Virus record (IMG/VR): IMGVR_UViG_3300017970_000189
DNA length: 64,000 bases
Strand: one strand, 5' to 3'
Source: an uncultured virus (IMG/VR IMGVR_UViG_3300017970_000189)
Taxonomy: Duplodnaviria > Heunggongvirae > Uroviricota > Caudoviricetes
A program made the translations under genes and the position numbers. This document shows, in pieces, positions 33,093-53,100 of this stretch. The notes below the pieces were generated by a model. It searched no databases and was not told the origin of the DNA. It saw only the letters and a program-made list of their open reading frames with translations. The first letter of the stretch is position 1; every line of letters starts with the position of its first letter.

Positions 33093-33169
33093 TGGTACCC
33101 CCGGTAGGACTCGAACCTACATTTCCCACGTTCGTAGCGTGGTCCGTTATCCAATTACGGGACGGGGGC
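33093..33169 (-). tRNA. tRNA-Arg(ACG)
   Basis: cloverleaf, loop CT-ACG-AA, encoded CCA. Confidence 0.9.
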
Positions 33170-33763
33170 CCCTTTGTCTTGCTGAGGTTCTCCTGAATGC
33201 TGGCGCTCCAAATGGCGAGCGAGAATCTTCCTGGCTTGTTTCTTGAATAGCTGGAATATCAAGATCCTTCGGATTCCCGTCTTCTGCGTGGTCGCCGTCT
33301 CAAGCGTCTGGCAGAAAACGATCAGCTCCTCGTAGGTCCGGTCCGATTTCAGCCCATTGCAGGTGTAACAAGCAGCCACCAGATTCTGATCATCGCTCTT
33401 TCCTCCCTTGGCACGGGGGTAGAAGTGATCGATCGTCTGAGCCACTTCTCCGCAAAAATAGCACGGATCCTTCAGGATCCTGGCTCTCCGGCTATCCCCT
33501 ACCTGAGCTCCCTTGTACCGTTTCTTCTCACGGACTTCCGCGGCTGATCTCCCGGTCGCCTTGACGAACAGCGCCCCGTTCATGTCCCGAGTCCACCCGC
33601 AAAGGCAATCCCACGCCTGACACCCTCCATGGCTGGCGTGAATGATCCTCCCATGCGAGCATTCCGGACACCGATTGACCTCTCGCTTCTTCACCGGCAA
33701 CCCATTCCCTTCCGCATCCGGCCATAACGGATGAAACATGGCTTCCTCCAACGGCTCTCTCAA
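33155..33763 (-). CDS. HNH endonuclease with N-terminal Zn-binding motif
   Basis: CYFCG..TIDHFYPRAKGG..NLVAACYTCN. Confidence 0.8.
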   Translation of the reverse strand: MREPLEEAMFHPLWPDAEGNGLPVKKREVNRCPECSHGRIIHASHGGCQAWDCLCGWTRDMNGALFVKATGRSAAEVREKKRYKGAQVGDSRRARILKDPCYFCGEVAQTIDHFYPRAKGGKSDDQNLVAACYTCNGLKSDRTYEELIVFCQTLETATTQKTGIRRILIFQLFKKQARKILARHLERQHSGEPQQDKGAPVP

Positions 33764-33785
33764 TCAGCCGGTTACAATATTAGCG

Positions 33786-34268
33786 ATGTGGAGAGATCCC
33801 GATGCCCGTGTCGGACAGGCCTACGGGTACGAGCGCGGCAAAAACTGGAACCGCGCCCGGCGCCTTCACCTACGCGAACAACCTTCCTGCGTCGCCTGCA
33901 AGAAACAATACCGCGGGTTCCTGGGCTGGTTCGTCCGGCTCTGGACCGGAACCGTCGTCCACCAGATCATCCCCCTCCACATCTGCTTCGCCCTCGATCG
34001 CCCCGACCTCGAGACCGACAGCCGCAACCTCGTCACGCTCTGCGCCGGCCACCACTTCCTCATCGGCCACCTCGGACATTTTCGATGCTTCAACCTTTAC
34101 GTCAAAGCCACCGTCATCCGCTGTTTCGGAAGAACCCCTCAGGAATTCCTGGAAAGCCCAGACTTCGAATACTTCGCCAGCAAAGGCTACAAGCCTTTCG
34201 ATGAATGGACCGGCGAAGAAATGGCCGAGTTCCGCCAGAAACTCGACGAAAAGTTCCCACCGAAATGA
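33786..34268 (+). CDS. phage-type HNH-like protein
   Basis: WNRARR..CVACK..VHQIIP..NLVTLCAGHH; one of the rare + strand genes. Confidence 0.7.
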   Translation: MWRDPDARVGQAYGYERGKNWNRARRLHLREQPSCVACKKQYRGFLGWFVRLWTGTVVHQIIPLHICFALDRPDLETDSRNLVTLCAGHHFLIGHLGHFRCFNLYVKATVIRCFGRTPQEFLESPDFEYFASKGYKPFDEWTGEEMAEFRQKLDEKFPPK

Positions 34269-34269
34269 T

Positions 34270-34347
34270 TGGTACCCCCAGAAGGATTCGAACCTTCACA
34301 ATTCCTCCTTCGGAGGGAGGTGACCTATCCAATTGGTCAATGGGGGC
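34270..34347 (-). tRNA. tRNA-Arg(CCG)
   Basis: loop CT-CCG-AA, CCA end. Confidence 0.88.
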
Positions 34348-34626
34348 CTATTCCATAACCCCATGCTCCAGGTAATCCACGATCGTGTCGCCGTGGCAGG
34401 CCAGAGGATGGCAGTAACACAGCAAAACTTTCCCCTTCAACCCCTCCACCTTCTTCTTGAATTCCGGATCCATCCGGAGACGCGCAAAAAAATACGACTG
34501 AAACTTCCGAATCACCGCCGCGCGATCCCCGTCCTCCCCGATCGCGTACGGATTCCCGAAAGGACTCGGGCGGCCAATATAAACCCCCTTTACCCCAGGG
34601 GTCCTCATATTGACCACCCGGGTCAG
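34348..34626 (-). CDS. DUF4326-family protein
   Basis: VYIGRPSPFGNPY..LKGKVLLCYCHPLACHGD; start uncertain. Confidence 0.8.
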   Translation of the reverse strand: MTRVVNMRTPGVKGVYIGRPSPFGNPYAIGEDGDRAAVIRKFQSYFFARLRMDPEFKKKVEGLKGKVLLCYCHPLACHGDTIVDYLEHGVME

Positions 34627-35069
34627 GCCGTTTGATTTCTCGTCTCTTCCCACTGGATGAAGCACCGATCGCAAAGAACCTTGAAGACCCCGATCAAAAA
34701 TCTCTTCCTCCCCTCCCCTCCGCACTGCTCGCAGATCTCCGCCGATTTAACCCTCGCCCCATCAATCAAAGAATAAAAATTCGTCGATCTCACCCTGTGG
34801 TCCTCGACTACCTTGGCCGGCGCGCTCATCGTGCTCTTCATCGAAATTTCCGCATGCACCACAAGCGACCCCATCTTCTCCTTCACCTGGAGAATCTGCC
34901 AGCATTCCCTCCCCGTCAGGATCTCGTCGTATCCCTCCCACACCTTGTCGAGCGCCGCACACAACTTCACCACCAAAGGCTGCCAGCCTGGCCCGCAATC
35001 CACCCTCACCAAGCAGCCCTTCTTGAACCTCTCCTTCACGCTCGCCCAAATATCCTGCTGCTCTGCCAT
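34623..35069 (-). CDS. phage hypothetical protein
   Basis: CGPGW..QVKEKMG..CEQCG..VLCDRC. Confidence 0.7.
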   Translation of the reverse strand: MAEQQDIWASVKERFKKGCLVRVDCGPGWQPLVVKLCAALDKVWEGYDEILTGRECWQILQVKEKMGSLVVHAEISMKSTMSAPAKVVEDHRVRSTNFYSLIDGARVKSAEICEQCGGEGRKRFLIGVFKVLCDRCFIQWEETRNQTA

Positions 35070-35134
35070 CAGGAGACAATTTTACCCACCCTCCAAACCA
35101 GACCTCAAGATCCTTCTCATCCTCTTCATTTTTT

Positions 35135-35212
35135 TGGTACCCCGGGCGTGACTCGAACACGCATTATGTCCGTTTAGGAAACGGATGCCCTATCCAGTTA
35201 GGCGACCGGGGC
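35135..35212 (-). tRNA. tRNA-Arg(CCT)
   Basis: loop TT-CCT-AA, CCA end. Confidence 0.88.
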
Positions 35213-35224
35213 GTGTAGAAAATC

Positions 35225-35830
35225 TTATCTTGCAGGAGCTTCGCCCGGTGCCGGCGAGATTTCAACCATCTCCATCGCCTCCCGGCCGCGCTGTCCAACA
35301 ACGTTCCAGTTGACGTTCCCAAAGAATGCACCGATATAGCCAGATTTGTCGAGGCCATATTCGCGCATATAGGCATGCTCGTAGCAATCCAGCACCAAGA
35401 GCGGCCAGGATCCCGCTACGTATCCCTGTCCGTGCTCCTTCATCGTGAACAGGAATTCCTGCCCTCTCCAAAGGTCCATCGCGAGCACCACCCAGCCGGT
35501 CGATCCGAGCGCCAGCACCGACATCCGATCGAGCAGCTCATCCGTATCCTTCTCAAACAGATGCTCGGGATTTCCCATCCCTCCCTTGGTCAATTGCTCG
35601 AAGTAGAGCTCGTGAAGATAGATCGCGTTCCTCAAGAACCCCTCTTCCGACATCAACCGCTGGTACTCGAAGCGATCGACTTTCTTCGGAAGATCTGCGA
35701 TCTTCTTCTCGATCGCGTTGAAGCGATCAAGATATCCCAGGTAAAGTTTGAAGTGATCCGACAAGAGCTTCTTCGAAAGCCCCGGAAGCTCTTTGTACTC
35801 AAGATCGATCGGTTTCCAGACTTCGCTCAC
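35225..35830 (-). CDS. Fe/Mn superoxide dismutase-family protein
   Basis: HFKLYLGY, LHELYF, PLLVLDCYEHAY, NVNW. Confidence 0.85.
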   Translation of the reverse strand: MSEVWKPIDLEYKELPGLSKKLLSDHFKLYLGYLDRFNAIEKKIADLPKKVDRFEYQRLMSEEGFLRNAIYLHELYFEQLTKGGMGNPEHLFEKDTDELLDRMSVLALGSTGWVVLAMDLWRGQEFLFTMKEHGQGYVAGSWPLLVLDCYEHAYMREYGLDKSGYIGAFFGNVNWNVVGQRGREAMEMVEISPAPGEAPAR

Positions 35831-36669: not shown

Positions 36670-36982
36670 TTCTGGAGCGTCCGCTGACCTCGGTTGAGCC
36701 CCTCAACTCACGCACGGGGGACTTTCGCCGGTACTTCCAAGTCCGCACTCGCTTTATGGTCCCTCTCGGCCCCGGAGGGCCGGTGCGATTGACACAAAGA
36801 TCGGAGGCTCTTCGCCTCCCCGGCCCGGCCATGATTTGCCTCACAGGCGCGTGGTCGGATAACGGACCCTGAGGCCCTGCCACTCCTGCGCTCTCCGAGG
36901 CGGATCGAGAGCTGAGGCATTACTGAGATCCTTTTGCGCCGGTCTCGCATGGATTTTCACCGACAGACCGGACGCTCCAGAA
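36670..36982 (-). ncRNA. candidate novel ~310-nt structured RNA
   Basis: perfect 14-bp terminal inverted repeat TTCTGGAGCGTCCG enclosing several hairpins; directly downstream of tRNA-Pro. Confidence 0.6.
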
Positions 36983-36986: not shown

Positions 36987-37063
36987 TGGTCGGGGTGACT
37001 GGATTTGAACCAGCGATCTCCTGCTCCCAGGGCAGGCGCGATTCCAAACTTCGCTACACCCCG
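36987..37063 (-). tRNA. tRNA-Pro(TGG)
   Basis: loop CC-TGG-GA (C33), CCA end. Confidence 0.88.
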
Positions 37064-37071
37064 AAATTATT

Positions 37072-37147
37072 TGGTAGGCCGGGTGGGAGTCGAACCCATC
37101 GTCGAGCGCTTATAAAGCGCCTACTCTGACCGTTGAGCTACCGGCCC
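37072..37147 (-). tRNA. tRNA-Ile(TAT)
   Basis: loop TT-TAT-AA, A73, CCA end. Confidence 0.85.
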
Positions 37148-37571: not shown

Positions 37572-37647
37572 TGGTCCGGCTACCCGGACTCGAACCGGGA
37601 TGATCCTGTACCCGAAACAGGCGGGTTACCAATTACCCTATAGCCGG
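37572..37647 (-). tRNA. tRNA-Pro(CGG)
   Basis: loop TT-CGG-GT, CCA end. Confidence 0.88.
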
Positions 37648-38018: not shown

Positions 38019-38105
38019 TGGTGCAGCCGAGAGGATTCGAACCTCCACGCCTTTCAGCATCCGCCCCTCAAACGGACGTGTCTACCTGAGTTCCACCACG
38101 GCTGC
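38019..38105 (-). tRNA. tRNA-Leu(GAG)
   Basis: long V arm, loop TT-GAG-GG. Confidence 0.85.
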
Positions 38106-38112
38106 GAATTTT

Positions 38113-38186
38113 TGGTACCCCGTGAGGGACTTGCACCCCCATCTTCCGGGTGTAAGCCGGAAATTCTTCTATTGAAATAACGGGGC
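38113..38186 (-). tRNA. tRNA-Val(TAC)
   Basis: loop CT-TAC-AC; T-loop TGCAAGT. Confidence 0.82.
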
Positions 38187-38248
38187 TCGGGGGCACCCAA
38201 AAACGGGGCCCAAATCGTAGAAAAAAGCCGCCCTAGGGCGGACAAATC

Positions 38249-38322
38249 TGGTACCCACGGAGGGAATCGAACCCCCGAATGCTCCATGTGAGGGAGCCGG
38301 TTTACCACTAACCTACGCGGGT
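38249..38322 (-). tRNA. tRNA-Val(CAC)
   Basis: loop CT-CAC-AT. Confidence 0.85.
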
Positions 38323-39948: not shown

Positions 39949-40031
39949 TGGTGGGCATGGAGGGATTCGAACCCTCACCCTTTCGGAGCCGGTTCTGAAC
40001 CGACAGCGTATACCAGTTCCGCCACATGCCC
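39949..40031 (-). tRNA. tRNA-Leu(CAG)
   Basis: loop TT-CAG-AA, V arm. Confidence 0.85.
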
Positions 40032-40038
40032 GAATTTT

Positions 40039-40115
40039 TGGTAGGCGTGGTGAGAGTCGAACTCACAAACATCCGATCTTAAATCGGGTCGCTATGCCAA
40101 TTCGCGTACACGCCC
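40039..40115 (-). tRNA. tRNA-Leu(TAA), short variable loop
   Basis: loop TT-TAA-GA; V loop only TGTTT. Confidence 0.82.
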
Positions 40116-40121
40116 GAATTA

Positions 40122-40206
40122 TGGTGGGCTCGGGGAGACTCGAACTCCCACGCCTTTCGGCGCCAGATCCTAAATCTGGTGCGTCTACCAATTCCGCCAC
40201 GAGCCC
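40122..40206 (-). tRNA. tRNA-Leu(TAG)
   Basis: loop TT-TAG-GA. Confidence 0.9.
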
Positions 40207-40291
40207 TGGTACCCGGGAGAGGACTCGAACCTCCACGCCTTTCAGCGTCCGCTCTTGAGGCGGATGTGTCTACCGGTTCCACCACCCGGGC
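40207..40291 (-). tRNA. tRNA-Leu(CAA)
   Basis: loop CT-CAA-GA; abuts the neighbouring tRNA with no spacer. Confidence 0.9.
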
Positions 40292-40307
40292 CTATCATAA
40301 TGAATTC

Positions 40308-40383
40308 TGGTGCGCTCGGAGGGGCTCGAACCCTCACATCCCCGGGTAAGAACCGGGTACGCTGCCACTCGCGTCCCGAGCGC
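40308..40383 (-). tRNA. tRNA-Lys(CTT)
   Basis: loop TT-CTT-AC. Confidence 0.85.
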
Positions 40384-40400
40384 ATCATTGTCAAATTTTT

Positions 40401-40477
40401 TGGTGCGCCCGGTCGGGCTCGAACCGACACTAATCCTGATTAAAAGTCAGGTGTCCTACCATTTGGACGACGAGCGC
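40401..40477 (-). tRNA. tRNA-Lys(TTT)
   Basis: loop CT-TTT-AA. Confidence 0.88.
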
Positions 40478-42015: not shown

Positions 42016-42062
42016 GATTTTCTCCCTCGCTCGGCAAGAGTGTACCACGCTTACCTTGAAAC

Positions 42063-42136: not shown

Positions 42137-42139
42137 AGA

Positions 42140-45234: not shown

Positions 45235-45309
45235 TGGTACCCCCGGAAGGAATTGCACCTTCACTTCTGAGGTAGAAGCTCAGCGCGCTATCTGTTACGC
45301 GACGGGGGC
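45235..45309 (-). tRNA. tRNA-Arg(TCT)
   Basis: loop CT-TCT-AC; T-loop TGCAATT. Confidence 0.82.
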
Positions 45310-45311
45310 AT

Positions 45312-45959
45312 CTATGCCCGGAACCGCACCACGCCATCGATGTAGAAAAACCCTGCAAACTGCTCCCAGATCTTTCCACGAGCCAGAAATTTCCTTCGAT
45401 GATTCACCGGCATCCGAGGCGGCACACTGACCGCCAGGACGCAATTCTCCTTCATGCTCCCCGTCCCCCAGCAGTGCGCACAATGGTCTGTATCCACGTA
45501 CCCCCTCATCCCGCACGCCCGGCATCCCTGCCCATAGCAAAGCACGCAGGTATTGTTCATCGGCCGCCGAAGCCTTCCCGACCCGCGGCAATCCGGACAC
45601 TTCCTCTGCCGGGTCAGCGACACCACCTTCTCACACCCCTCCTCAAGCTCCTTCGTATCCAGATCCAGCTCCACGCACATGTCGACCACCGGATAAACCT
45701 GAGCCGACTGGGCCTTCGTCTGAGGGGGCGTCTTGAAGGGGCTGTTCTTGACGAAATCGTACTGGTGACGTCTCTCGACATCGACCAGGATTTCGTAGGC
45801 CTGATTGATGTCCCTGAACTTCCGTTCCGCTTCCTTGTTTCCAGGATCGCGATCCGGATGATACTTCAGGGCAAGTTTTCGGTAAGCGGCGCGAATCTCG
45901 TCAGCGCTCGCTCCCTCTCTCACCCCGAGGAGTTCGTAATAGTCCGACCTCGAGTTCAC
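45312..45959 (-). CDS. dnaJ: DnaJ-family co-chaperone (J domain and CxxCxGxG Zn fingers)
   Basis: [12 protein letters not shown], four CxxCxGxG-like motifs; probable GTG start. Confidence 0.85.
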
Positions 45960-45999
45960 GAACGGATTATAACTCAATCTGTCAGCGAACAAAAAAGAT

Positions 46000-46085
46000 T
46001 GGCACCACGGGCAGGATTCGAACCTGCATACTCTTTCGAGCGCCTCATTAACAGTGAGGTGGGCTACCAGTTACCCGACCGTGGT
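46000..46085 (-). tRNA. tRNA-Asn(GTT) with long variable arm
   Basis: loop CT-GTT-AA, G73, V arm CGCTCGAAAGAGTAT. Confidence 0.82.
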
Positions 46086-46086
46086 A

Positions 46087-46160
46087 TGGAGCCGAGTGCG
46101 AGAATCGAACTCGCGTCTGCCGTTTACGAAACGGCCGTTCTGCCATTGAACTAACGCGGC
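46087..46160 (-). tRNA. tRNA-Thr(CGT)
   Basis: loop TT-CGT-AA. Confidence 0.88.
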
Positions 46161-46451: not shown

Positions 46452-46526
46452 TGGAGGGCGCGGCGGGTGTCGAGCCCGCTCATGACGGTTTTGCAGACCG
46501 TCGTGTTCCCGTTTCACCACACGCCC
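46452..46526 (-). tRNA. tRNA-Cys(GCA)
   Basis: loop CT-GCA-AA, U73. Confidence 0.85.
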
Positions 46527-46534: not shown

Positions 46535-46608
46535 TGGTAGCGGGTTACGGAGTCGAACCGTCTCGCCAGGCTTATGAGACCCAGCCAGCCCCACGGCTTA
46601 AACCCGCA
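46535..46608 (-). tRNA. tRNA-Met(CAT), atypical
   Basis: loop CT-CAT-AA; weak D and anticodon stems; CCA end. Confidence 0.65.
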
Positions 46609-46614: not shown

Positions 46615-46728
46615 TGATGCATGGCTACACGAATCGAACGTGCGCGGATATATCCAACGCTTTGCGGCATTAGAGTCCGGATGACCCCCATCTCCCGACG
46701 CGCAAACGCCGGGGGCCATCAGCCACGC
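46615..46728 (-). ncRNA. tRNA-like RNA (8-bp acceptor, T arm, greatly extended D region)
   Basis: GCGTGGCT/AGCCATGC stem; GCACG-TTCGATT-CGTGT; 3' end ATCA. Confidence 0.55.
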
Positions 46729-46734: not shown

Positions 46735-46811
46735 TGGTAGCGGGGGCAGGATTCGCACCTGCGACCTCCAGGTTATGAGTCTGGCGAGCTACTGGGCTGC
46801 TCCACCCCGCA
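46735..46811 (-). tRNA. tRNA-fMet-like (CAT)
   Basis: GCGGGGTGGAGCAG body, 1:72 mismatch, loop CT-CAT-AA. Confidence 0.85.
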
Positions 46812-47014: not shown

Positions 47015-47100
47015 TGGCGGAGAGGACAGGACTCGAACCTGCATGCCAGTTACGGCGCGTCTTTAGCAAAGACGTGGCTTACCAATTAGCCTACCTCTCC
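47015..47100 (-). tRNA. tRNA-Ser(GCT)
   Basis: loop TT-GCT-AA, V arm, G73. Confidence 0.88.
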
Positions 47101-47105: not shown

Positions 47106-47849
47106 CTACCAAAGCGGGCTGGCAGGCCGATTCGTGAACATCGGAACTCCCAGAGGATCCAGAGGTTCTTGTTTTGGAGCAAGGATGATTTGAGGCACTT
47201 GATCTCGCTTTTGCGAATCGATCTCGACGACGACCACCCCATGATTGGGTTTGTAGTCCTCGCCACAGATCGCCGCATTTACAAAAAGCGTCCTCCCTTG
47301 CACCGCCATCCCGTAACTCAGATGGATATGCCCAAAGGTATGAAGCCTCGGCTTCACCCGCTTCGTCACCACCTCATAGAGATCCCCACAACCGACATGC
47401 TCCCCGTCCAGGTTGCGATCGAGGATCCGAAGCGGAGGCGTGTGCGTCACCAGAATGTCGATCCCATTCGGGATCTTGTTCCACTTCTCCCTTAGTCTAT
47501 GACCCCGAGGGAGATTGAAAGCCCACCTCATGAACTCAGGCTGCCAGGGCGACCCATAGATCTTCAGCCCTTCCACCTCGACCATGTTGTCTTCGAGGTA
47601 GATCATGTCCTTCCTGAGCATCGACTGTCCCAGATTCGGATTCTTCTGGAAGATCCAGTCGTGATTCCCGGGGACGAAGATCTTGTATTTGTATGGAAGC
47701 TTGTCGAACCACTCCACGAACGCCCCCACCTCATTCAGCTTCCCCCGGAAGGTCGCGTCTCCGGAGTGGATCACCATGTCGGCTTCTGGCATCTTGATTT
47801 TATATTGCAGATGCATGAGGTGTGTATCGGACATCAACGCAATTTTCAT
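47106..47849 (-). CDS. calcineurin-like metallophosphoesterase
   Basis: SDTH, HSGD, PGNHD, THTPP, FGHIH. Confidence 0.92.
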   Translation of the reverse strand: MKIALMSDTHLMHLQYKIKMPEADMVIHSGDATFRGKLNEVGAFVEWFDKLPYKYKIFVPGNHDWIFQKNPNLGQSMLRKDMIYLEDNMVEVEGLKIYGSPWQPEFMRWAFNLPRGHRLREKWNKIPNGIDILVTHTPPLRILDRNLDGEHVGCGDLYEVVTKRVKPRLHTFGHIHLSYGMAVQGRTLFVNAAICGEDYKPNHGVVVVEIDSQKRDQVPQIILAPKQEPLDPLGVPMFTNRPASPLW

Positions 47850-47875: not shown

Positions 47876-47961
47876 TGGCGGAGGCGAGAGGACTTGCACC
47901 TCCCCGCCTGTTACAGCGCCTCGCTTCCAACGAGGGGGGCCTCCTGCTGCCCAACGCCTCC
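47876..47961 (-). tRNA. tRNA-Ser(GGA)
   Basis: loop TT-GGA-AG; T-loop TGCAAGT. Confidence 0.8.
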
Positions 47962-47968
47962 GAATTTT

Positions 47969-48058
47969 TGGAGGAGACGGCGCGACTTGCACGCGCGCCC
48001 CAGTTTCCCGGGTCCGACGCTTTCAAGGCGTAGTGGCACGCTCACTGCCTTCGTCTCC
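47969..48058 (-). tRNA. tRNA-Ser(TGA)
   Basis: loop CT-TGA-AA; T-loop TGCAAGT. Confidence 0.8.
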
Positions 48059-48152
48059 TGGCGGAGGGCGGAAGTCTTGATCTCCACACCCGGGTTGACC
48101 GAATGCCATCCGCTTTCGAGGCGGCGGTGGGCTCCCACCCACTTCACCCTCC
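48059..48152 (-). tRNA. tRNA-Ser(CGA)
   Basis: loop CT-CGA-AA, V arm. Confidence 0.78.
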
Positions 48153-48223: not shown

Positions 48224-48298
48224 TGGTACCTGCGGCCGGACCTGCCCCGGCATCCTCCGCTTATGAGACGGATGCACTTCTCATTGTGCTACGCAGGC
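48224..48298 (-). tRNA. tRNA-Met(CAT), elongator- or Ile2-like
   Basis: loop CT-CAT-AA; T-loop GGCAGGT. Confidence 0.75.
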
Positions 48299-48334: not shown

Positions 48335-48364
48335 AGCCCCGGGATGTTCCCGGGGCTTTTTTTT
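48335..48364 (+). terminator. intrinsic terminator oriented against the tRNA array
   Basis: AGCCCCGGGA-TGT-TCCCGGGGC followed by a T-tract. Confidence 0.65.
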
Positions 48365-48437
48365 GGAGCCGCCATCCCGAATTGCACGGGAACCGCCTCG
48401 CTACAAGGGAGGCAGACTACTTTTATCCTATGGCGGC
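48364..48437 (-). tRNA. tRNA-Thr(TGT)
   Basis: loop CT-TGT-AG. Confidence 0.78.
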
Positions 48438-48443
48438 CAATTA

Positions 48444-48519
48444 TGGAGCCGGCGGCGGGTGTTGATCCCGCACCTCAGCATTACCAATGCCGTGTACAGA
48501 GCCGCTATACTACGCCGGC
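48444..48519 (-). tRNA. tRNA-Thr(GGT)
   Basis: loop TT-GGT-AA. Confidence 0.8.
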
Positions 48520-48536
48520 GAAATCAATCGAGAGAT

Positions 48537-48610
48537 TGGTGGGCACGGGTGGAATCGAACCACCGATTCCTCGATGTCATCGAGGCGGGTTACCTCTATC
48601 CCACGCGCCC
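48537..48610 (-). tRNA. tRNA-Val(GAC)
   Basis: loop AT-GAC-AT. Confidence 0.85.
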
Positions 48611-48688
48611 TGGTCGGGCTCCGCGGACTTGCACCGCGCTTAACTCCTGTACCCCAAACAGGCGGGTCGCTATCTACCCCTGAGCCCG
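48611..48688 (-). tRNA. tRNA-Pro(GGG)
   Basis: loop TT-GGG-GT. Confidence 0.82.
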
Positions 48689-48696
48689 GATTTTTT

Positions 48697-48772
48697 TGGA
48701 GGGACCGCGGGGAATCGAACCCCGTCTGAGTGGGCCACGGCCACTCGTGCAAAACCATTACACTTCGGCCCC
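48697..48772 (-). tRNA. tRNA-His(GTG)
   Basis: loop CC-GTG-GC, extra 5' G. Confidence 0.8.
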
Positions 48773-48778
48773 AAATCT

Positions 48779-48853
48779 TGGTCCGCCTAGAAGGAGTCGA
48801 ACCTTCGTCGTTCGGTTATCAACCAAATGCTCTGACCGTTGAGCTACAGGCGG
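48779..48853 (-). tRNA. tRNA-Ile(GAT)
   Basis: loop TT-GAT-AA. Confidence 0.85.
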
Positions 48854-48884
48854 TTCTATTTTTGACCTACACGCCGTGAAAAGT

Positions 48885-48924
48885 TGGACCGGGTAGCGGG
48901 AATCGAACGCTCCTCGCCACGTTG
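48885..48924 (-). pseudogene. 3' half of interrupted tRNA (Gly-like, U73)
   Basis: CAACGTGG..TTCGATT..TACCCGG-T-CCA; pairs with the 5' half at 49573-49604. Confidence 0.75.
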
Positions 48925-48929
48925 AATTT

Positions 48930-49005
48930 TGGAGCGGGTGATGGGATTCGCACCCACGATCTGCTCGTTGGCAACGAGCCGTGTTGGCTCCTACACTACA
49001 CCCGC
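48930..49005 (-). tRNA. tRNA-Gly(GCC)
   Basis: loop TT-GCC-AA, U73. Confidence 0.88.
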
Positions 49006-49535
49006 ATATTTGGCCGTCGAGGACGTCCATTCCCCTTGTTAAGTGCTCCGTAGTTCGGAGTTAGGGAGTGACAGTTTGGACAGATAAGCTCAAGATTTCT
49101 TGGTGAAGAATCCCTCCACTTTCCGTTCTTATGGTTTACCGTCAGAGGAACTTTCCCCGTCGTAGGATTCACAACACCCCAGCCGCACTTCTCGCACTTC
49201 GACTTGTTCTTCTCGTATAGATAGCGACGAATAGGGTTCGCAATTGACTGCCCTCTGGTTCCGTCCTCCTCACCCCTGAGCCACCGCTTGATAAAGCCCC
49301 TGTAAACAAACTCCCGATAACATCTCGGAGAGCAGTAGTCATTATCCTTATGACGATCTGTGGTATCACTTCCACAAGATCGGCACTTTGGCCTCTTTCT
49401 CAGCGGCCTTGCTGTTGAGATCCCGAACTTTGCCGCCCAGTATCGGATATTTGCGATGGAGCACCTCAACTTAGTTGCAGCCCCCTGTAGCGTATGCCTC
49501 TGCTTGAGAGCGCGTCTAAGAACCGAGCACTTCAT
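48996..49535 (-). CDS. HNH homing-type endonuclease
   Basis: YCSPRC, CEKCGW, LTVNHKNG, NLELICPNCHSLT; lower GC. Confidence 0.88.
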   Translation of the reverse strand: MKCSVLRRALKQRHTLQGAATKLRCSIANIRYWAAKFGISTARPLRKRPKCRSCGSDTTDRHKDNDYCSPRCYREFVYRGFIKRWLRGEEDGTRGQSIANPIRRYLYEKNKSKCEKCGWGVVNPTTGKVPLTVNHKNGKWRDSSPRNLELICPNCHSLTPNYGALNKGNGRPRRPNMRV

Positions 49536-49613: not shown

Positions 49614-49689
49614 TGGCTGGGGCGGAAGGGCTCGAACCTTCATAGCGGGGTCCAAAGTCCCGCGTCCTACCAAATTAGACGACACCCCA
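49614..49689 (-). tRNA. tRNA-Gln(TTG)
   Basis: loop CT-TTG-GA. Confidence 0.88.
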
Positions 49690-49690
49690 C

Positions 49691-49782
49691 TGGTGCATGG
49701 GAGAGGATTCGAACCTCCAAGCCTTTCGGCGGGCGGGTTACAGCCGCTTGAGCTCGTTGTCCCAGACCTGCTCAGCCCATGC
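49691..49782 (-). tRNA. tRNA-Tyr(GTA)
   Basis: loop CT-GTA-AC, V arm, enlarged D loop. Confidence 0.82.
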
Positions 49783-49793
49783 AGATGAAGATT

Positions 49794-49869
49794 TGGTGGA
49801 ACCGACCGGCATCGAACCGGCAACCTCCTGCTTGCAAGGCAGGCGCTCTCCCAATTGAGCTACGGCCCC
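49794..49869 (-). tRNA. tRNA-Ala(TGC)
   Basis: canonical; G3:U70. Confidence 0.93.
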
Positions 49870-49877
49870 AGGGATAG

Positions 49878-49952
49878 TGGTGGATCCAGAGGGAGTTGCA
49901 CCCTCACTTCCGCGATGCGAACGCAGCGGTCTCCTGTTGATCCTATGGACCC
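49878..49952 (-). tRNA. tRNA-Ala(CGC)
   Basis: loop TT-CGC-AT; G3:U70. Confidence 0.82.
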
Positions 49953-50938: not shown

Positions 50939-51012
50939 TGGTGGACCCACGGGGAGTCGCACCCCGGTTTCGACAATGCCATTGTCGCGTGATCCTGCTT
51001 CACCATGGGCCC
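50939..51012 (-). tRNA. tRNA-Ala(GGC)
   Basis: loop AT-GGC-AT; G3:U70. Confidence 0.82.
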
Positions 51013-51018
51013 AAATTT

Positions 51019-51092
51019 TGGTGCCGCCCCCGGGTAACGCTCCCGGTCCACCGGCTTTTCAGACCAGTGTGCAACTTCTACACCAGAGCGGC
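51019..51092 (-). tRNA. tRNA-Phe(GAA)
   Basis: loop CT-GAA-AA; T-loop AGCGTTA. Confidence 0.78.
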
Positions 51093-51098
51093 AGATCT

Positions 51099-51172
51099 TG
51101 GTTCCCACGCCTGGACTCGAACCAGGATAATCAGATCCAGAGTCTGCTGTGTTACCGTTACACTACGTGGGA
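51099..51172 (-). tRNA. tRNA-Gln(CTG)
   Basis: loop CT-CTG-GA. Confidence 0.88.
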
Positions 51173-51186
51173 GTACAACAGAAGCT

Positions 51187-51262
51187 TGGCACCACCGAGG
51201 AGACTCGCACTCCCTAACACCGGCTTGACAAGCCGGCGGCTCGACTCTTTGCCTTCGGTGGT
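51187..51262 (-). tRNA. tRNA-Asp(GTC)
   Basis: loop TT-GTC-AA, G73. Confidence 0.82.
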
Positions 51263-51263: not shown

Positions 51264-51335
51264 TGGCGGGCCGTGGAGGTGCCGCCCCTCCCTTCCCGGT
51301 TTTGGAGACCAGGATGATCTCTGGATCACGACCCG
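51264..51335 (-). tRNA. tRNA-Trp(CCA)
   Basis: loop CT-CCA-AA, G73; atypical T-loop. Confidence 0.75.
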
Positions 51336-51340
51336 GACGA

Positions 51341-51459: not shown

Positions 51460-51465
51460 TCAAAT

Positions 51466-51924
51466 CTAGTTCGAACCATTCTTACGAAAGAGGATCTTGG
51501 CGCGCTCGTCTTCCGCCCGATCGATGGCTTCGCGCATGACCTTGAACCCGATGTCCGCCAGGATCACCCGAACTCCCTGCCAGACCACCGGCTGACCATG
51601 GACAAGATCTTCGAAATCTTTCGTTGCAAGAATGAGCCGGACCTCCTCCTTGGGAACGACGACAGGCTCTTCCACAACAGACTTCGGAGGAGGAGGCGGA
51701 AGAAGAGCCATCCTGCTGACCGGCTTTTCCTCTATGGTGGCATGCACCGGGGAAGGCATTGCCGGAAAAGCTTGACCTGGACGGCGCCTCTGCCGGCACG
51801 GGAAACAGCGCCTGGGCATCGAAAAACCCTGGATGCTCTTCATCAGTTCTTCGAACCTGACCTTTTCCGACGCCGTGATGACAAACGTCTGACCGCAATC
51901 AATACAGACCAGTGGACCCATCAA
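51466..51924 (-). CDS. zinc-ribbon (zf-trcl-like) domain protein
   Basis: LVCIDCGQTFVIT..E..F..GF..PRRCFPCR. Confidence 0.75.
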   Translation of the reverse strand: MMGPLVCIDCGQTFVITASEKVRFEELMKSIQGFSMPRRCFPCRQRRRPGQAFPAMPSPVHATIEEKPVSRMALLPPPPPKSVVEEPVVVPKEEVRLILATKDFEDLVHGQPVVWQGVRVILADIGFKVMREAIDRAEDERAKILFRKNGSN

Positions 51925-51946
51925 GGATCTCCTTTCTTATTTTTCT

Positions 51947-52021
51947 TGGACCGGGCGACGGGAATCGAACCCGCCATCTTCTCCTTGGGAAGGAGACGTG
52001 TTACCGATACACCACGCCCGG
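51947..52021 (-). tRNA. tRNA-Gly(CCC)
   Basis: loop TT-CCC-AA, U73. Confidence 0.9.
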
Positions 52022-52028
52022 GGAAGGT

Positions 52029-52346
52029 TTAATCGAAGCTTCGAGATTCCCATTCGTCTAGAGCTCGGTGAATGGTGGAAACCAGTTCTGGATTCGTCGG
52101 GTCCTGCCAGATATCCGGACCGACATCGAGATAGCGGACCTTGTAGAGCTGATCATGAGGGACAAAGGTCGGCTCCCAGTGATGCATGATCACGATCCGG
52201 TCCGCCCATTCCGAAAGCTGATCGATCGGATCGGGAAAGTTGCTCTGCCAGCCGGATGCCATCGCGTTGTGTCCGCGACTCTTGAGAGCGGTTGCGCAGG
52301 CCACGCTCCGCGTATTTCCCCCGGCACAGATGCACAGGAATTTCAT
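52029..52346 (-). CDS. low-molecular-weight PTP-family phosphatase
   Basis: FLCICAGGNTRS (Cx5RS); WADRIVIM. Confidence 0.82.
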   Translation of the reverse strand: MKFLCICAGGNTRSVACATALKSRGHNAMASGWQSNFPDPIDQLSEWADRIVIMHHWEPTFVPHDQLYKVRYLDVGPDIWQDPTNPELVSTIHRALDEWESRSFD

Positions 52347-52597
52347 GGCCCGAATACTTTGGTCTCCAGCCCCTCATCCTTTTCAGGCACCCACCCGACC
52401 AGCCTGACCTTCTCATCAAACGTGCAGTAGAGCCCGGGGCACCGCACGTTCGCCAACACCCAGCCGTCCTCGGCGATCTCCTGGGTAATCAAGCCCACAT
52501 CGCCACATACCGGGCAGGCAAACAGGATACGCCTTTTCCCGGTATTCCACAAATTCCACGTCCCGGGTGGAAGCAGCGGATTCTTACCCAAATCCAT
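52343..52597 (-). CDS. hypothetical Zn-binding protein
   Basis: CPVCG..CPGLYC. Confidence 0.6.
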   Translation of the reverse strand: MDLGKNPLLPPGTWNLWNTGKRRILFACPVCGDVGLITQEIAEDGWVLANVRCPGLYCTFDEKVRLVGWVPEKDEGLETKVFGP

Positions 52598-52668
52598 CAG
52601 GGCCTCCGAACGGCCCCGGTCGCACTTCTATTCTATTCGGCAGAATGCGACATGACACGGAGAATTTT

Positions 52669-52742
52669 TGGACGGCCTGACGGGTACCGCCCCCGCGTCC
52701 CCTGGGTGGAAACCAGGCGCTCTACTATTGAGCTACAGGCCG
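52669..52742 (-). tRNA. tRNA-Gly(TCC)
   Basis: loop TT-TCC-AC, U73; T-loop GGCGGTA. Confidence 0.8.
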
Positions 52743-52750
52743 AAATGGAA

Positions 52751-53100
52751 TGGTGGACCCGCCGGGAGTCGCACCCGGGTCTCAGCCAAGTCGTCAGGGG
52801 CGTCTACGCGCGTAGGCGGCGATTTCTTCTCGGCCTCGGCGCGGGCACCGCCGCCCTCGCTTCGGCCATATTCCGGATTTGATCTCGGCTTCCTTCTCCC
52901 GGACTCTTCAGAATGCCCAGCCGATTATTAACGTCCTTCCATGCCGATCGGCGTAGACACGGCGGACGTCGCGGTCAGGCCGCGAGAGCGAGGCTGCCCT
53001 TGGCAGTTGATTGTTTAGCCGGCTTTTAGCCTGGCCAACCGGCCAACCAGGACGCGCAGCTTGCCTTTCTCCTTAGTTGATCGAAATCTAGTTCGGGCCC
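52751..53100 (-). ncRNA. ssrA: tmRNA, tag peptide (A)AKGSLALAA*
   Basis: GGGCCCG/CGGGUCC-ACCA with G3:U70; AAUCAACU then GCC resume codon; tag ORF 53004-52975. Confidence 0.92.

What the first reader, a model, noticed from the sequence alone, without database searches (positions are those of the whole stretch)
33093..53100. Complete non-redundant tRNA set plus RNase P RNA, tmRNA and RtcB: a self-contained translation-rescue island
Seen: 46 co-oriented tRNAs cover all 20 amino acids with 44 distinct anticodons (only CAT is repeated). All have encoded CCA and they are often grouped by amino acid (Leu, Ser, Lys, Glu, Ala). rnpB, ssrA, rtcB, a metallophosphoesterase, an LMW phosphatase and a DnaJ are interleaved. 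No rRNA or synthetase gene is present. Known: tRNA arrays and tmRNA occur in large phages, but a virus-borne RNase P RNA is rare. Inference: the island makes, matures and repairs tRNA and rescues ribosomes against host tRNA-cleaving defences.
Basis: partly seen in the sequence, partly recalled or inferred. Interest (0 to 1): 0.72.

Follow-up and report, generated by a model that had tools for sequence, protein, structure and literature searches.

The report
Huge-phage tRNA island with own RNase P
A 20-kb stretch of what is most likely a very large uncultured peat-soil phage carries a nearly complete one-of-each set of tRNA genes plus its own shrunken RNase P ribozyme, a tmRNA and an RNA-repair ligase, and a virus-encoded RNase P RNA does not seem to be described in the literature.

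Summary
On the minus strand, 33093-53100 holds 44 ordinary tRNA genes, all ending in CCA. It also holds 3 irregular tRNA-like genes (anticodons CAU, CUA, CCA), a class A RNase P RNA (229 bits), a tmRNA (91 bits, tag AKGSLALAA), RtcB, a metallophosphoesterase and a J-domain protein.

Corrections:
- tRNA-Trp exists only as an irregular, long-acceptor-stem gene.
- The 'LMW phosphatase' rests on a CX5RS motif and a moderate fold match, with no profile hit.
- A raiA-like RNA was missed.
- 'Self-contained' is wrong: the window has no rnpA, smpB or synthetase.

The RNase P RNA is 309 nt and lacks P13/P14. It sits between two tRNA-Glu genes, with gaps of 6 and 0 nt, so tRNA processing would release it.

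The same layout recurs in 15 of 52 IMG/VR contigs that carry the P4 motif. One is a complete 168-kb phage with terminase, portal and tape-measure genes.

I found no paper on a phage-encoded RNase P RNA. Earlier notes of this scan report the same kind in other phage genomes.

The window itself has no virion gene. Its contig is 427 kb, from peat metagenomes. Three weak clues point to an Acidobacteriota host. The anti-defence purpose is inference only.

The parts
33093..33169 (-). tRNA-Arg(ACG), low-coordinate end of the island
   Evidence: ARAGORN; Rfam 57.6 bits; encoded CCA
33155..33763 (-). HNH endonuclease ORF (202 aa) between tRNA genes
   Evidence: Pfam HNH 1.5e-8; PHROG HNH families
34270..34347 (-). 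tRNA-Arg(CCG)
34348..34725 (-). DUF4326 protein (125 aa). A homologue (43% identity) lies next to the tRNA array of the complete phage G002.
   Evidence: Pfam; phrog_464; tblastn
35135..35212 (-). tRNA-Arg(CCU)
35225..35830 (-). Divergent Fe/Mn superoxide-dismutase-like ORF (201 aa)
   Evidence: Pfam Sod_Fe_C 4e-14; NCBIfam 63.6 bits, far below cut-off
36675..36977 (-). raiA-motif-like structured RNA with two insertions, directly downstream of tRNA-Pro(UGG)
   Evidence: Rfam RF03072, 76 bits (gathering 101.3), E 1e-18, full model 1-209
36987..37147 (-). tRNA-Pro(UGG) 36987-37063 and tRNA-Ile(UAU) 37072-37147
37572..37647 (-). tRNA-Pro(CGG)
38019..38322 (-). tRNA-Leu(GAG), tRNA-Val(UAC), tRNA-Val(CAC)
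39949..40477 (-). Six-tRNA block: Leu(CAG), Leu(UAA), Leu(UAG), Leu(CAA), Lys(CUU), Lys(UUU). Spacers are 0-17 nt.
40696..42075 (-). RtcB RNA ligase. The listed GTG start overlaps tRNA-Glu by 13 nt, so the real start is probably further in.
   Evidence: Pfam RtcB 3.3e-96; phrog_1075; aligns to P. horikoshii RtcB 4dwr at E 2e-58 with the HGxGR histidine kept
42063..42136 (-). tRNA-Glu(UUC). Its first base directly follows the last base of the RNase P RNA.
42137..42445 (-). Class A RNase P RNA, 309 nt. P13/P14 are deleted; the P4 core and the CGGGUA (L15) motif are kept.
   Evidence: Rfam RF00010, 229.1 bits, model 1-367, 43 model positions replaced by 1 base; alignments
42452..42527 (-). tRNA-Glu(CUC). 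Its CCA end lies 6 nt upstream of the RNase P RNA.
42789..44802 (-). Two paralogous ORFs (327 and 348 aa) of unknown function inside the island
   Evidence: AF2 pLDDT 80.6 with no significant fold match
45235..45309 (-). tRNA-Arg(UCU)
45312..45992 (-). J-domain (DnaJ N-terminal domain only) protein, 226 aa
   Evidence: Pfam DnaJ 1.2e-26, residues 17-79; NCBIfam
46000..46160 (-). tRNA-Asn(GUU) and tRNA-Thr(CGU), 1-nt spacer
46452..46526 (-). tRNA-Cys(GCA)
46539..46607 (-). Irregular 69-nt tRNA(CAU): 4-nt D-loop, long anticodon stem, 3-nt variable loop, 4-bp T stem, CCA displaced by one base
   Evidence: ARAGORN; no Rfam tRNA hit; tRNA-Sec model 22 bits; fold
46619..46728 (-). Irregular 110-nt tRNA-Sec/allo-tRNA-like element: 8-9 bp acceptor stem, 21-nt insertion in the D arm, long variable arm, putative anticodon CUA, 3' end UCA
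   Evidence: Rfam RF01852, 30.5 bits (gathering 47), E 2e-4 in the local scan; fold
46735..46811 (-). tRNA(CAU) with a mismatched 1-72 pair
   Evidence: alignment
47015..47100 (-). tRNA-Ser(GCU)
47106..47849 (-). Calcineurin-type metallophosphoesterase (247 aa). It is 51% identical to a gene beside the rnpB-bearing tRNA array of IMG/VR contigs G003 and G004.
   Evidence: Pfam Metallophos; phrog_1649; tblastn; alignment A2
47876..48152 (-). tRNA-Ser(GGA), Ser(UGA), Ser(CGA); one spacer of 0 nt
48224..48298 (-). tRNA(CAU), third copy
48364..49005 (-). Seven-tRNA block: Thr(UGU), Thr(GGU), Val(GAC), Pro(GGG), His(GUG), Ile(GAU), Gly(GCC)
48996..49535 (-). HNH endonuclease ORF (179 aa)
   Evidence: PHROG HNH families, best 9.3e-14
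49614..49952 (-). tRNA-Gln(UUG), Tyr(GUA; oversized D-loop, sub-threshold), Ala(UGC), Ala(CGC)
50939..51262 (-). tRNA-Ala(GGC), Phe(GAA), Gln(CUG), Asp(GUC)
51264..51338 (-). Irregular tRNA-Trp(CCA) candidate: long acceptor stem, 4-bp T stem, atypical T-loop, G73-CCA, 1 nt from tRNA-Asp
   Evidence: fold; Rfam tRNA-Sec model 22 bits, E 0.011 in the local scan; missed by ARAGORN and the Rfam tRNA model
51947..52021 (-). tRNA-Gly(CCC)
52029..52346 (-). 105-aa protein with an N-terminal CX5RS loop; probable miniature LMW-PTP/ArsC-fold phosphatase
   Evidence: motif; 7-member family, alignment A6; AF2 pLDDT 88; Foldseek best hits YwlE, LMW-PTP, Wzb and ArsC at E 4e-3 to 2e-2; no Pfam or NCBIfam hit
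52669..52742 (-). tRNA-Gly(UCC)
   Evidence: Rfam 53 bits; ARAGORN ps95
52751..53100 (-). tmRNA: G3-U70 acceptor stem, CCA end, tag frame AKGSLALAA followed by a stop
   Evidence: Rfam RF00023, 91.4 bits, model 1-374; tag

Best explanation
This is the stable-RNA region of a very large (about 427 kb) uncultured phage, or phage-like element, from peat.

Shown:
- It is built of co-oriented clusters of one-of-each tRNA genes with encoded CCA. Spacers are 0-17 nt and A/T-rich.
- HNH endonuclease genes and small orphan ORFs lie between the clusters.
- By standard wobble rules (my inference), the 44 ordinary tRNAs decode 60 of the 61 sense codons. An irregular tRNA(CCA) may cover UGG.
- A 309-nt class A RNase P RNA lacking P13/P14 lies between two tRNA-Glu genes.

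Inferred mechanism:
- Each cluster is read as a polycistronic precursor.
- 3' trimming of the upstream tRNA makes the 5' end of the RNase P RNA. RNase P cleavage at +1 of the downstream tRNA makes its 3' end. The ribozyme is thus released by the pathway it serves.
- It keeps the P4 catalytic core and the L15 GGU that pairs with tRNA 3'-RCCA, which fits the encoded CCA ends. It would assemble with the host's RnpA protein.
- That would raise or preserve 5'-processing capacity. Capacity matters here because some neighbouring tRNAs have no spacer at all, so RNase P alone separates them.
- The tmRNA, with alanine identity and a tag ending in LALAA, would work with host SmpB to free stalled ribosomes.
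- RtcB, perhaps helped by the metallophosphoesterase and the small phosphatase-like protein, would reseal tRNAs cut in the anticodon loop.

Net effect: phage translation continues when the host tRNA pool or its processing falls, whether from phage-induced shut-off or from host anticodon nucleases.
For: The RNAs are real and look intact.
- RNase P RNA scores 229.1 bits over the whole model, with P4 and CGGGUA kept.
- tmRNA scores 91.4 bits and has G3-U70, CCA and an in-frame tag ending LALAA plus a stop.
- All 44 ordinary tRNAs have CCA.
- Of 24 adjacent tRNA pairs, spacers are 0-17 nt and three are 0 nt.
- The gaps between rnpB and its flanking tRNAs are 6 and 0 nt.

The layout recurs in viral contigs.
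- 52 IMG/VR contigs carry the P4 motif, and 15 of them have at least 12 tRNAs within 3 kb.
- 12 of those 15 reach the RF00010 gathering score.
- In 10 such loci, a tRNA starts within 7 nt of the P RNA's 3' end in 7, and a tRNA ends within 6 nt of its 5' end in 7.
- 11 array-embedded copies share a consensus fold. 37 of its 57 pairs show compensatory changes, and P4 is invariant.
- One carrier, G002, is 168.6 kb, has direct terminal repeats and is rated complete. It encodes terminase large subunit, portal, tape measure, DNA polymerase and DnaB.
- No rnpA was found in 4 of 4 such records.

Viral flavour of the window.
- About 79% of it is covered by minus-strand ORFs.
- Most ORFs have no family hit.
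- There are three HNH genes (31366-31986, 33155-33763, 48996-49535).
- Three orphan ORFs have only 3-11 relatives among 5.8 billion proteins.
- ORF 57106-57993 has weak homologues in 55 large lytic phages.
- The metallophosphoesterase is 51% identical to a gene beside the array in G003 and G004.

Assembly.
- The window's own protein lies on a 426,845-bp contig.
- Depth is an even 44-48x across ORFs and tRNAs in the probable source run. A strain about 2% divergent occurs in another run.

RtcB keeps its catalytic histidine motif.
Against: - No capsid, portal, terminase or tail gene lies in the 64 kb.
- No close relative of the window was found in IMG/VR or among deposited phages.
- A large glycosyltransferase and rhamnose cluster (5.7-26 kb) looks cell-like.
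- There is no expression or processing data. No RNA run was listed.
- Loss of P13/P14 could weaken substrate binding, and activity is untested.
- The covariation among phage copies could be inherited from different bacterial donors rather than maintained within phages.
- No rnpA or smpB is present, so function depends on cross-compatibility with an unknown host.
- The role of the two phosphatase-type proteins in RNA repair is a guess.
- The link to host defences is not tested at all.
Confidence: 0.62

Rival explanations
1. The window is part of a cellular chromosome, or of a megaplasmid or other non-viral extrachromosomal element. The tRNAs, rnpB and ssrA would then be that replicon's housekeeping or spare copies.
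For: - No virion or packaging gene lies in the window.
- The glycosyltransferase/RmlA/RmlB cluster is typical of cells.
- The metallophosphoesterase has about 50%-identical chromosomal homologues in many Acidobacteriota.
- The passages I read of Al-Shayeb 2020 (PMC7162821) note that some large putative plasmids carry similar translation genes.
Against: - There are no rRNA, ribosomal-protein, synthetase, rnpA or smpB genes in 64 kb.
- Each anticodon occurs once, in a single 20-kb array interrupted by HNH genes.
- The RNase P RNA is 309 nt. Ten cellular genomes sampled had 332-521 nt.
- Orphan ORFs dominate.
- The same rnpB-in-array layout occurs in a verified complete phage.
- The cellular homologues of the phosphoesterase have 0-1 tRNA nearby.
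Confidence: 0.13
2. The RNase P RNA is not a working ribozyme for the phage. It could be a decaying passenger captured along with host tRNA genes. Or it could act without catalysis, for example by soaking up host RnpA to shut down host tRNA maturation.
For: - P13/P14 are missing.
- Some relatives are reduced further. Three array copies are below the Rfam gathering score, and three aligned copies lack P18.
- No rnpA is present in the window or in relatives.
- No close bacterial donor could be identified. Core identity to all 26 comparators is 50-70%.
Against: - The score is 229 bits, with only a few non-canonical pairs.
- P4, J3/4 and the L15 GGU are intact.
- P4 is invariant, and 37 of 57 pairs covary across 11 viral copies of very different G+C content.
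- The precise placement between tRNAs is conserved across lineages that have different flanking tRNAs.
- In the ~2% divergent strain, 186 nt of rnpB carry 2 differences, against 34 in 1907 nt of the neighbouring ORFs. These are small numbers.
Confidence: 0.15
3. The island is not a co-ordinated system. It would be an accretion of independent modules (tRNAs, rnpB, ssrA, rtcB, phosphatases, DnaJ) gathered by homing-endonuclease-driven exchange. Each would give a small separate benefit such as general translational capacity or codon supply, with no special link to tRNA-cleaving defences.
For: - The protein genes between tRNA clusters are heterogeneous: SOD-like, DUF4326, J-domain and orphan paralogues.
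- tmRNA above the family cut-off is absent from the four records G001-G004.
- ARAGORN finds no tmRNA within 3 kb of the P4 motif in any of the 52 IMG/VR stretches.
- RtcB was seen beside the rnpB-bearing array in only one other locus, L152.
- The tRNAs flanking rnpB differ between lineages: Glu/Glu, Cys/Gly, Thr/Gly.
Against: - All elements act on tRNA or on the stalled ribosome, and they share one strand.
- The phosphoesterase is linked to the array in two lineages.

This rival differs from the best explanation only in purpose, not in parts.
Confidence: 0.3

Closest known systems
Translation-gene sets of huge and jumbo phages: large tRNA arrays with tmRNA (Al-Shayeb et al. 2020, PMC7162821, passages read). 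Cluster C mycobacteriophages are a further example, recalled and not checked.
   Same: - Dozens of tRNA genes and a tmRNA on a very large phage genome.
- tRNA sequences that differ from the host's.
- Dependence on host SmpB and synthetases unless the phage carries its own.
   Different: The main text of that paper has no occurrence of 'RNase P'. This island adds an RNase P RNA, a raiA-like RNA and three irregular tRNAs. Its set is strictly one gene per anticodon. I could not see the supplementary tables of that paper.
Bacterial class A RNase P RNA (Rfam RF00010; E. coli M1 RNA type)
   Same: - The full model is matched at 229 bits.
- The P1-P12 and P15-P18 layout, the P4 core and the GGU of L15 are kept.
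   Different: - It is 309 nt, against 332-521 nt in ten sampled bacteria.
- The P13/P14 module is deleted.
- It is encoded on a probable virus, between two tRNA genes, with no rnpA nearby.

Helix names are assigned from my memory of the class A structure.
rnpB embedded in tRNA arrays on IMG/VR viral contigs (found here), and earlier notes of this scan (e1-5649051, e1-6000564, e1-5838253, e1-5988224)
   Same: - A reduced class A RNase P RNA lies within a co-oriented, non-redundant tRNA array and often abuts tRNAs on both sides.
- No rnpA is present.
   Different: - The window's copy has no close relative among them; the longest blastn alignments are 68-69% identical over 163-190 nt.
- The flanking tRNAs differ.
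- None of the four records G001-G004 has a tmRNA above the family cut-off.
Phage tRNA repair against anticodon nucleases (T4 Pnkp plus Rnl1 against PrrC, recalled) and phage tRNAs as a counter to tRNA-targeting defences (PMC10264068, search listing and start of abstract only)
   Same: An RNA ligase and phosphoesterase-type enzymes are encoded next to phage tRNAs. The logic of replacing or repairing cut tRNAs would apply.
   Different: - The ligase is RtcB, which joins a 3'-phosphate or cyclic phosphate to a 5'-OH. It is not an ATP-dependent Rnl1.
- No polynucleotide kinase was found.
- No nuclease target is known.
- Nothing was tested.
allo-tRNAs and other tRNA-Sec-like tRNAs with long acceptor stems (Mukai et al., PMC5389517; part of the abstract and other passages read)
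   Same: - Three island genes fit the tRNA-Sec model better than the tRNA model. They have acceptor stems of 7-9 bp and 4-bp T stems.
- That paper reports such tRNAs in Acidobacteria, in phages and in peat and forest-soil transcripts, some of them as possible suppressors.
   Different: - Scores are low (22-30 bits).
- One gene has a 21-nt insertion in the D arm and no CCA.
- Anticodons here are CAU, CUA and CCA.
- TAG ends 27 of 83 putative genes in the window, so a constitutive amber suppressor would be costly.

Membership tests
Bacterial RNase P RNA class A (RF00010) | Covariance-model score at or above the curated gathering score, over the whole model | tested here: met
   229.1 bits against 100, model positions 1-367, E 4e-73
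Bacterial RNase P RNA class A (RF00010) | Both strands of P4, with the conserved core sequence | tested here: met
   The GAGGAAAGUCCGGGCUCC and ACAGGACCCGGCUUA stretches align to the consensus. These columns are invariant in 6 and in 11 aligned copies.
Bacterial RNase P RNA class A (RF00010) | GGU in the P15/P16 internal loop, which pairs with the tRNA 3'-RCCA | tested here: met
   CGGGUAGG aligns to the consensus CGGGUAgg. The role of the motif is recalled, not tested.
Bacterial RNase P RNA class A (RF00010) | P13/P14 arm of the specificity domain | tested here: not met
   43 model positions are replaced by 1 base. The arm is also absent in L039, L040 and L041 and present in L042 and L044. 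I therefore file this as a reduced variant.
Bacterial RNase P RNA class A (RF00010) | Cleaves pre-tRNA at +1 | not testable with these tools
   Needs a biochemical assay.
tmRNA (RF00023) | Gathering score; tRNA-like domain with G3-U70 and CCA; internal tag frame ending in a degradation signal and a stop | tested here: met
   91.4 bits against 47. The 5' GGGCCCG pairs with the 3' CGGGUCC-A-CCA. The tag is AKGSLALAA followed by a stop, starting at nt 96. ARAGORN does not call it.
tmRNA (RF00023) | Partner SmpB encoded by the same replicon | tested here: not met
   No SmpB family hit among the 137 window ORFs. The rest of the contig was not seen.
RtcB RNA ligase (PF01139) | Profile match over the whole domain, with the catalytic histidine motif | tested here: met
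   323.6 bits against 27. Aligned to 4dwr residues 21-481; the MPDxHxGYG, GSLGxGNHF and HGxGR motifs are kept.
Low-molecular-weight phosphotyrosine/arginine phosphatase or ArsC fold | Profile match to the LMWPc family | tested here: not met
   No Pfam or NCBIfam hit, even at E <= 1.
Low-molecular-weight phosphotyrosine/arginine phosphatase or ArsC fold | N-terminal CX5R(S/T) phosphate-binding loop on a strand-loop-helix of a Rossmann-like fold | tested here: inconclusive
   C7-X5-R13-S14 is invariant in 7 of 7 family members. The model (pLDDT 88) best matches YwlE, LMW-PTP, Wzb and ArsC at E 4e-3 to 2e-2 and TM 0.58-0.71. The protein is 105 aa, against about 150.
Tailed double-stranded DNA phage (huge phage) | Terminase, portal, major capsid or tail genes on the same contig | tested here: inconclusive
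   None in the 64-kb window. The other ~363 kb of the contig could not be read.
raiA motif RNA (RF03072) | Covariance-model score at or above the gathering score | tested here: not met
   76 bits against 101.3, but E 1e-18 over the whole model, with two insertions. It is probably a divergent homologue and is not filed as a member.
allo-tRNA / tRNA-Sec-like tRNAs | Acceptor stem of 8-9 bp with a T stem of 3-5 bp, and a long variable arm | tested here: inconclusive
   46619-46728 has a 9-bp (or 8-bp) acceptor stem, a 4-bp T stem and a long variable arm, at 30.5 bits against a cut-off of 47. 51267-51335 and 46540-46607 score 22 bits. Alternative folds exist.

The most novel reading that the evidence does not exclude
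The 309-nt RNA is a working member of an undescribed class: virus-encoded RNase P ribozymes. These would be miniaturised class A RNAs placed inside phage tRNA polycistrons. Their own activity, together with tRNA 3' trimming, would cut them out. They would borrow the host's RnpA protein, which lets huge phages mature their own tRNA sets independently of the host's RNase P RNA. In this phage it comes with two further oddities that may belong to the same takeover kit: a raiA-like RNA, and three long-acceptor-stem tRNAs, including the only tRNA-Trp and a possible amber reader.
Probability: 0.5. Interest if true: 0.8.

Novelty: new variant of a known kind. Interest (0 to 1): 0.66.

Why it matters
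RNase P RNA is one of the few universal ribozymes, and it is treated as a cellular housekeeping gene.

If phages carry working, naturally minimised copies, several things follow:
- Viruses would be shown to take over tRNA 5' maturation, and not only tRNA supply.
- There would be a set of natural small class A ribozymes lacking P13/P14, and in some cases P18, for structure-function work.
- It would raise the question of how a foreign P RNA competes for the host's C5 protein.
- RNase P RNA would no longer be a safe 'cellular marker' in metagenome binning.

The one-of-each tRNA set, the tmRNA whose tag resembles that of Acidobacteriota, and the irregular tRNAs also make this a useful handle on phages of a dominant but poorly cultured soil phylum.

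Tried and rejected
Access to the genome
- No whole genome is held for this window.
- An exact 40-mer from the window's end found nothing in metagenome contigs.

Searches for relatives of the window
- Megablast of the island against deposited phages and plasmids gave only tRNA-sized hits.
- RtcB relatives in IMG/VR are at most 35% identical over most of the query; one 43% match (L037) covers only residues 60-243.
- tblastn of the 542-aa ORF against phages gave no match.
- The ESM Atlas gave nothing for that ORF.
- An IMG/VR scan with the paralogue family failed at first because the alignment was too diverse. A smaller alignment then found no relative.

Searches in related records
- Terminase_6N was not found in G001-G004. 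G002's terminase was found by PHROGs instead.
- tmRNA searches in G001-G004 returned only tRNAs.

Origin of rnpB
- Core identity to 26 viral and cellular comparators is 50-70%, with no clear nearest relative.
- Five Acidobacteriota genomes have a different P4 sequence.
- The donor therefore stays unresolved.

raiA RNA
- No hit in five Acidobacteriota genomes or in G001-G004. The control genomes did not ring either, so this says nothing.
- A motif scan of IMG/VR gave 85 hits, none with the second motifs, so I take them to be chance matches.

The paralogous ORF 43756-44802
- The model has no significant fold match. The best Foldseek E-value is 0.2, and VIA Z is 7.8 or less on generic helical bundles.

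tRNA calls rejected
- A low-threshold ARAGORN 'tRNA-Trp' at 50272-50345 and other ps85 calls have no support.

Other
- Promoter and terminator scans were uninformative: 11 promoter-like sites against 7.4 expected.
- No RNA holder was listed among the sequencing runs, so expression could not be examined.
- TAG recoding is rejected: TAG ends 27 of 83 putative genes.

Full report
**What is there**

All features lie on the minus strand between 33093 and 53100.

- ARAGORN at default settings finds 40 tRNA genes.
- Rfam at its gathering scores finds 38 tRNA hits, 35 of them shared with ARAGORN. The three extra ones are Gly-UCC, Asp-GUC and Ala-CGC.
- Two more genes are below threshold but convincing on inspection. 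Ser-CGA appears at ARAGORN ps95. A class II Tyr-GUA with an oversized D-loop scores 28.1 bits against a cut-off of 29.
- I discarded three ps95 calls and all extra ps85 calls, because none has Rfam support.

Three genes are irregular and fit the tRNA-Sec model better than the general tRNA model:

- a 69-nt CAU gene at 46539-46607;
- a 110-nt element at 46619-46728 with an 8-9 bp acceptor stem, a 21-nt D-arm insertion, a long variable arm, a CUA anticodon and no CCA;
- a gene at 51264-51338 with anticodon CCA, discriminator G and CCA. It is the only candidate tRNA-Trp, and both programs miss it.

The census is therefore 44 ordinary plus 3 irregular tRNA-like genes, with 45 distinct anticodons and CAU three times.

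All 44 ordinary genes encode CCA. By standard wobble rules (my inference) they read 60 of the 61 sense codons. UGG depends on the irregular gene. UGG is used at 17.9 per 1000 codons in the window.

**The other RNAs**

*RNase P RNA.* A class A RNase P RNA lies at 42137-42445: 229.1 bits against a cut-off of 100, with the whole model matched.

- It is 309 nt. Ten bacterial genomes I sampled have 332-521 nt.
- The alignment shows 43 model positions replaced by one base, just after the conserved GGGUGAAA. From my memory of the class A structure, that is the P13/P14 arm.
- P4, J3/4 and the CGGGUA of the P15 loop are intact.
- The gene starts 6 nt after the CCA of tRNA-Glu(CUC). Its last base touches the first base of tRNA-Glu(UUC).

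*tmRNA.* A tmRNA lies at 52751-53100, at 91.4 bits against 47. It has a G3-U70 acceptor stem, a CCA end and the tag AKGSLALAA followed by a stop.

It matches the whole raiA-motif model at 76 bits (E 1e-18). That is below the curated 101.3 bits because of two insertions.

**The proteins**

- Pfam confirms RtcB, a calcineurin-type metallophosphoesterase and a protein with only a J domain.
- RtcB aligns over nearly its whole length to the solved P. horikoshii enzyme, and the histidine motif is kept.
- The 'LMW phosphatase' is the 105-aa ORF 52029-52346.
  - It has no profile hit even at E <= 1.
  - A CX5RS loop is invariant in its seven-member family.
  - A confident model (pLDDT 88) matches YwlE, LMW-PTP, Wzb and ArsC structures best, with modest E-values.
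  - I call this claim partly supported.
- Two HNH endonuclease genes lie inside the island and one lies just outside it.
- Two paralogous ORFs at 42789-44802 stay unexplained.
- No rnpA, smpB, synthetase or rRNA is present in the window. 'Self-contained' therefore does not hold.

**Is it viral?**

The window has no capsid, portal, terminase or tail gene, so the direct test is inconclusive. The indirect evidence is consistent:

- Minus-strand ORFs cover about 79% of the window.
- Most ORFs have no family hit.
- Three orphan ORFs have only 3-11 relatives among 5.8 billion proteins.
- ORF 57106-57993 has weak homologues in 55 large lytic phages.
- The window's own proteins lie on a contig of 426,845 bp.
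- The DNA occurs in four peat-metagenome runs. Depth is an even 44-48x over ORFs and tRNAs in the probable source run. A strain about 2% divergent occurs in a second run. This argues against a chimeric assembly.

I put about 85% on a huge phage or phage-like element, and the rest on a cellular fragment or megaplasmid.

**The RNase P RNA is one of a recurring viral kind**

- A scan of IMG/VR for the P4 motif found 52 contigs.
- In 15 of them, at least 12 tRNAs lie within 3 kb.
- I passed the array loci and some others to Rfam: 8 loci and 18 of the 52. Of the 15 array copies, 12 reach the gathering score. Three are too reduced.
- The arrays are co-oriented and nearly non-redundant, like the one here.
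- In ten such loci, a tRNA starts within 7 nt of the P RNA's 3' end in seven. A tRNA ends within 6 nt of its 5' end in seven. The flanking tRNAs differ between lineages.
- Eleven copies share a consensus fold in which 37 of 57 pairs show compensatory changes and P4 never varies.
- The window's copy and three others lack P13/P14. Others keep it, and some lack P18.
- One carrier, G002, has direct terminal repeats and is rated complete. I fetched it and scanned 24 of its 73 ORFs of 200 aa or more. I found terminase large subunit, portal, tape measure, DNA polymerase, DnaB and ribonucleotide reductase. At least one bona fide phage therefore carries such a gene.
- None of four carriers has rnpA.
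- Among 50,697 deposited phage records, only five gave weak partial core matches. One of these is a Salmonella chromosome record.

**Literature**

Seven full-text searches found no paper describing a phage-encoded RNase P RNA.

- The main text of Al-Shayeb 2020 has no 'RNase P'. I could not see its supplements.
- The passages returned for 'phage-encoded', 'viral' and 'tmRNA' in a 2024 RNase P review mention no viral RNase P gene.
- The P finder paper has no occurrence of phage, virus or plasmid.

Earlier notes of this scan report the same kind of gene in at least four other phage genomes, and they also found no paper. I reached the IMG/VR result before reading them.

**How it probably works**

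The following is inferred.

- Spacers between adjacent tRNAs are 0-17 nt and A/T-rich, and three are zero.
- The clusters must therefore be cut out of polycistronic precursors. At zero-spacer junctions a single RNase P cut makes both the 5' end of one tRNA and the CCA end of the previous one.
- A phage that floods the cell with about 47 extra pre-tRNAs gains from extra RNase P capacity. It also gains from a P RNA that survives host shut-off.
- Placing rnpB between two tRNAs lets the same processing release it.
- The retained GGU fits substrates that carry CCA.
- The RNA must use host RnpA, and the tmRNA must use host SmpB.
- RtcB with phosphoesterase-type partners could reseal tRNAs cut by anticodon nucleases. 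This parallels T4's repair system (recalled).
- Whether the selective force is host defence or general autonomy cannot be told from the sequence.

**Host**

Three weak clues point to Acidobacteriota:

- Of the 80 best cellular homologues of the phosphoesterase, 69 carry Acidobacteriota labels, including the top 48. Identity is about 50%. None of them sits beside a tRNA array.
- The tmRNA tag AKGSLALAA resembles ANQELALAA, which is found in 4 of 4 Acidobacteriota tmRNAs. It resembles the tags of the three other phyla sampled less well.
- The source is peat, and irregular Sec-like tRNAs are reported from Acidobacteria and peat transcripts (PMC5389517, passages).

Against this:

- The P4 sequence of five Acidobacteriota rnpB genes differs from the window's.
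- Neither rnpB nor tmRNA is closer overall to that phylum.

**Verdict**

The tRNA-tmRNA-RtcB set is a known huge-phage theme. The embedded, reduced RNase P RNA is the notable part. It appears to be an unpublished, recurrent viral variant of a universal ribozyme.

Noticed in passing
window 36675-36977 (-): A raiA-motif-like RNA (76 bits, E 1e-18, whole model, two insertions) lies directly after tRNA-Pro(UGG) inside a probable phage tRNA island. No second example turned up in IMG/VR by motif scan, nor in four rnpB-bearing phage records.
   Followed up: partly
window 46539-46607, 46619-46728, 51264-51338 (-): Three irregular tRNA-like genes with long acceptor stems and 4-bp T stems fit the tRNA-Sec model better than the tRNA model. 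Their anticodons are CAU, CUA and CCA. The CCA one is the only tRNA-Trp candidate. The CUA one would read TAG, which ends 27 of 83 putative genes in the window.
   Followed up: partly
window 37072-37147 (-): A tRNA-Ile with the rare UAU anticodon is present alongside three CAU tRNAs. AUA could therefore be read without lysidine modification.
   Followed up: no
window 5734-26027 (-), low-GC part 16688-21881: A 20-kb cluster holds about 14 glycosyltransferase, RmlA/RmlB-type sugar-nucleotide and methyltransferase genes. Within it is a 5-kb stretch of 40-50% G+C (the rest is about 58%) whose ORFs have third-position G+C of 0.34-0.50. This suggests a recent foreign insertion.
   Followed up: no
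window 42789-43772 and 43756-44802 (-): Two adjacent paralogous ORFs belong to a tiny family (32 representatives among 1.8 billion proteins). The confident model is a helical bundle with a three-stranded sheet and has no significant structural match.
   Followed up: yes
window 42459-42539 and 37698-37964, in run X2: In a strain about 2% divergent from another peat run, the stretch holding tRNA-Glu(CUC) is replaced by 77 other letters, and a 267-nt stretch by 255 other letters. Each is seen in one low-depth contig. The tRNA content of the island seems to vary between strains.
   Followed up: no
window 53344-53375: A perfect 13-bp G+C-rich hairpin flanked by A and T runs lies just upstream of the tmRNA. 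It may be a bidirectional terminator that marks the upstream edge of the island.
   Followed up: no
L152 (IMG/VR, 162-kb contig), around locus positions 1416-3131: Another high-G+C viral contig has RtcB within about 130 nt of an rnpB that abuts tRNAs on both sides. The RtcB-rnpB-tRNA linkage therefore occurs in a second lineage.
   Followed up: partly
L134, L184, L153 (IMG/VR): Three array-embedded viral RNase P RNAs lack the P18 hairpin. Three further array copies (L148, L151, L179), and two loci with only 3 tRNAs nearby (L143, L165), are so short that they fall below the Rfam gathering score; their P4-to-P4 distances are 172-212 nt. Together they form a natural series of progressively reduced ribozymes.
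   Followed up: partly
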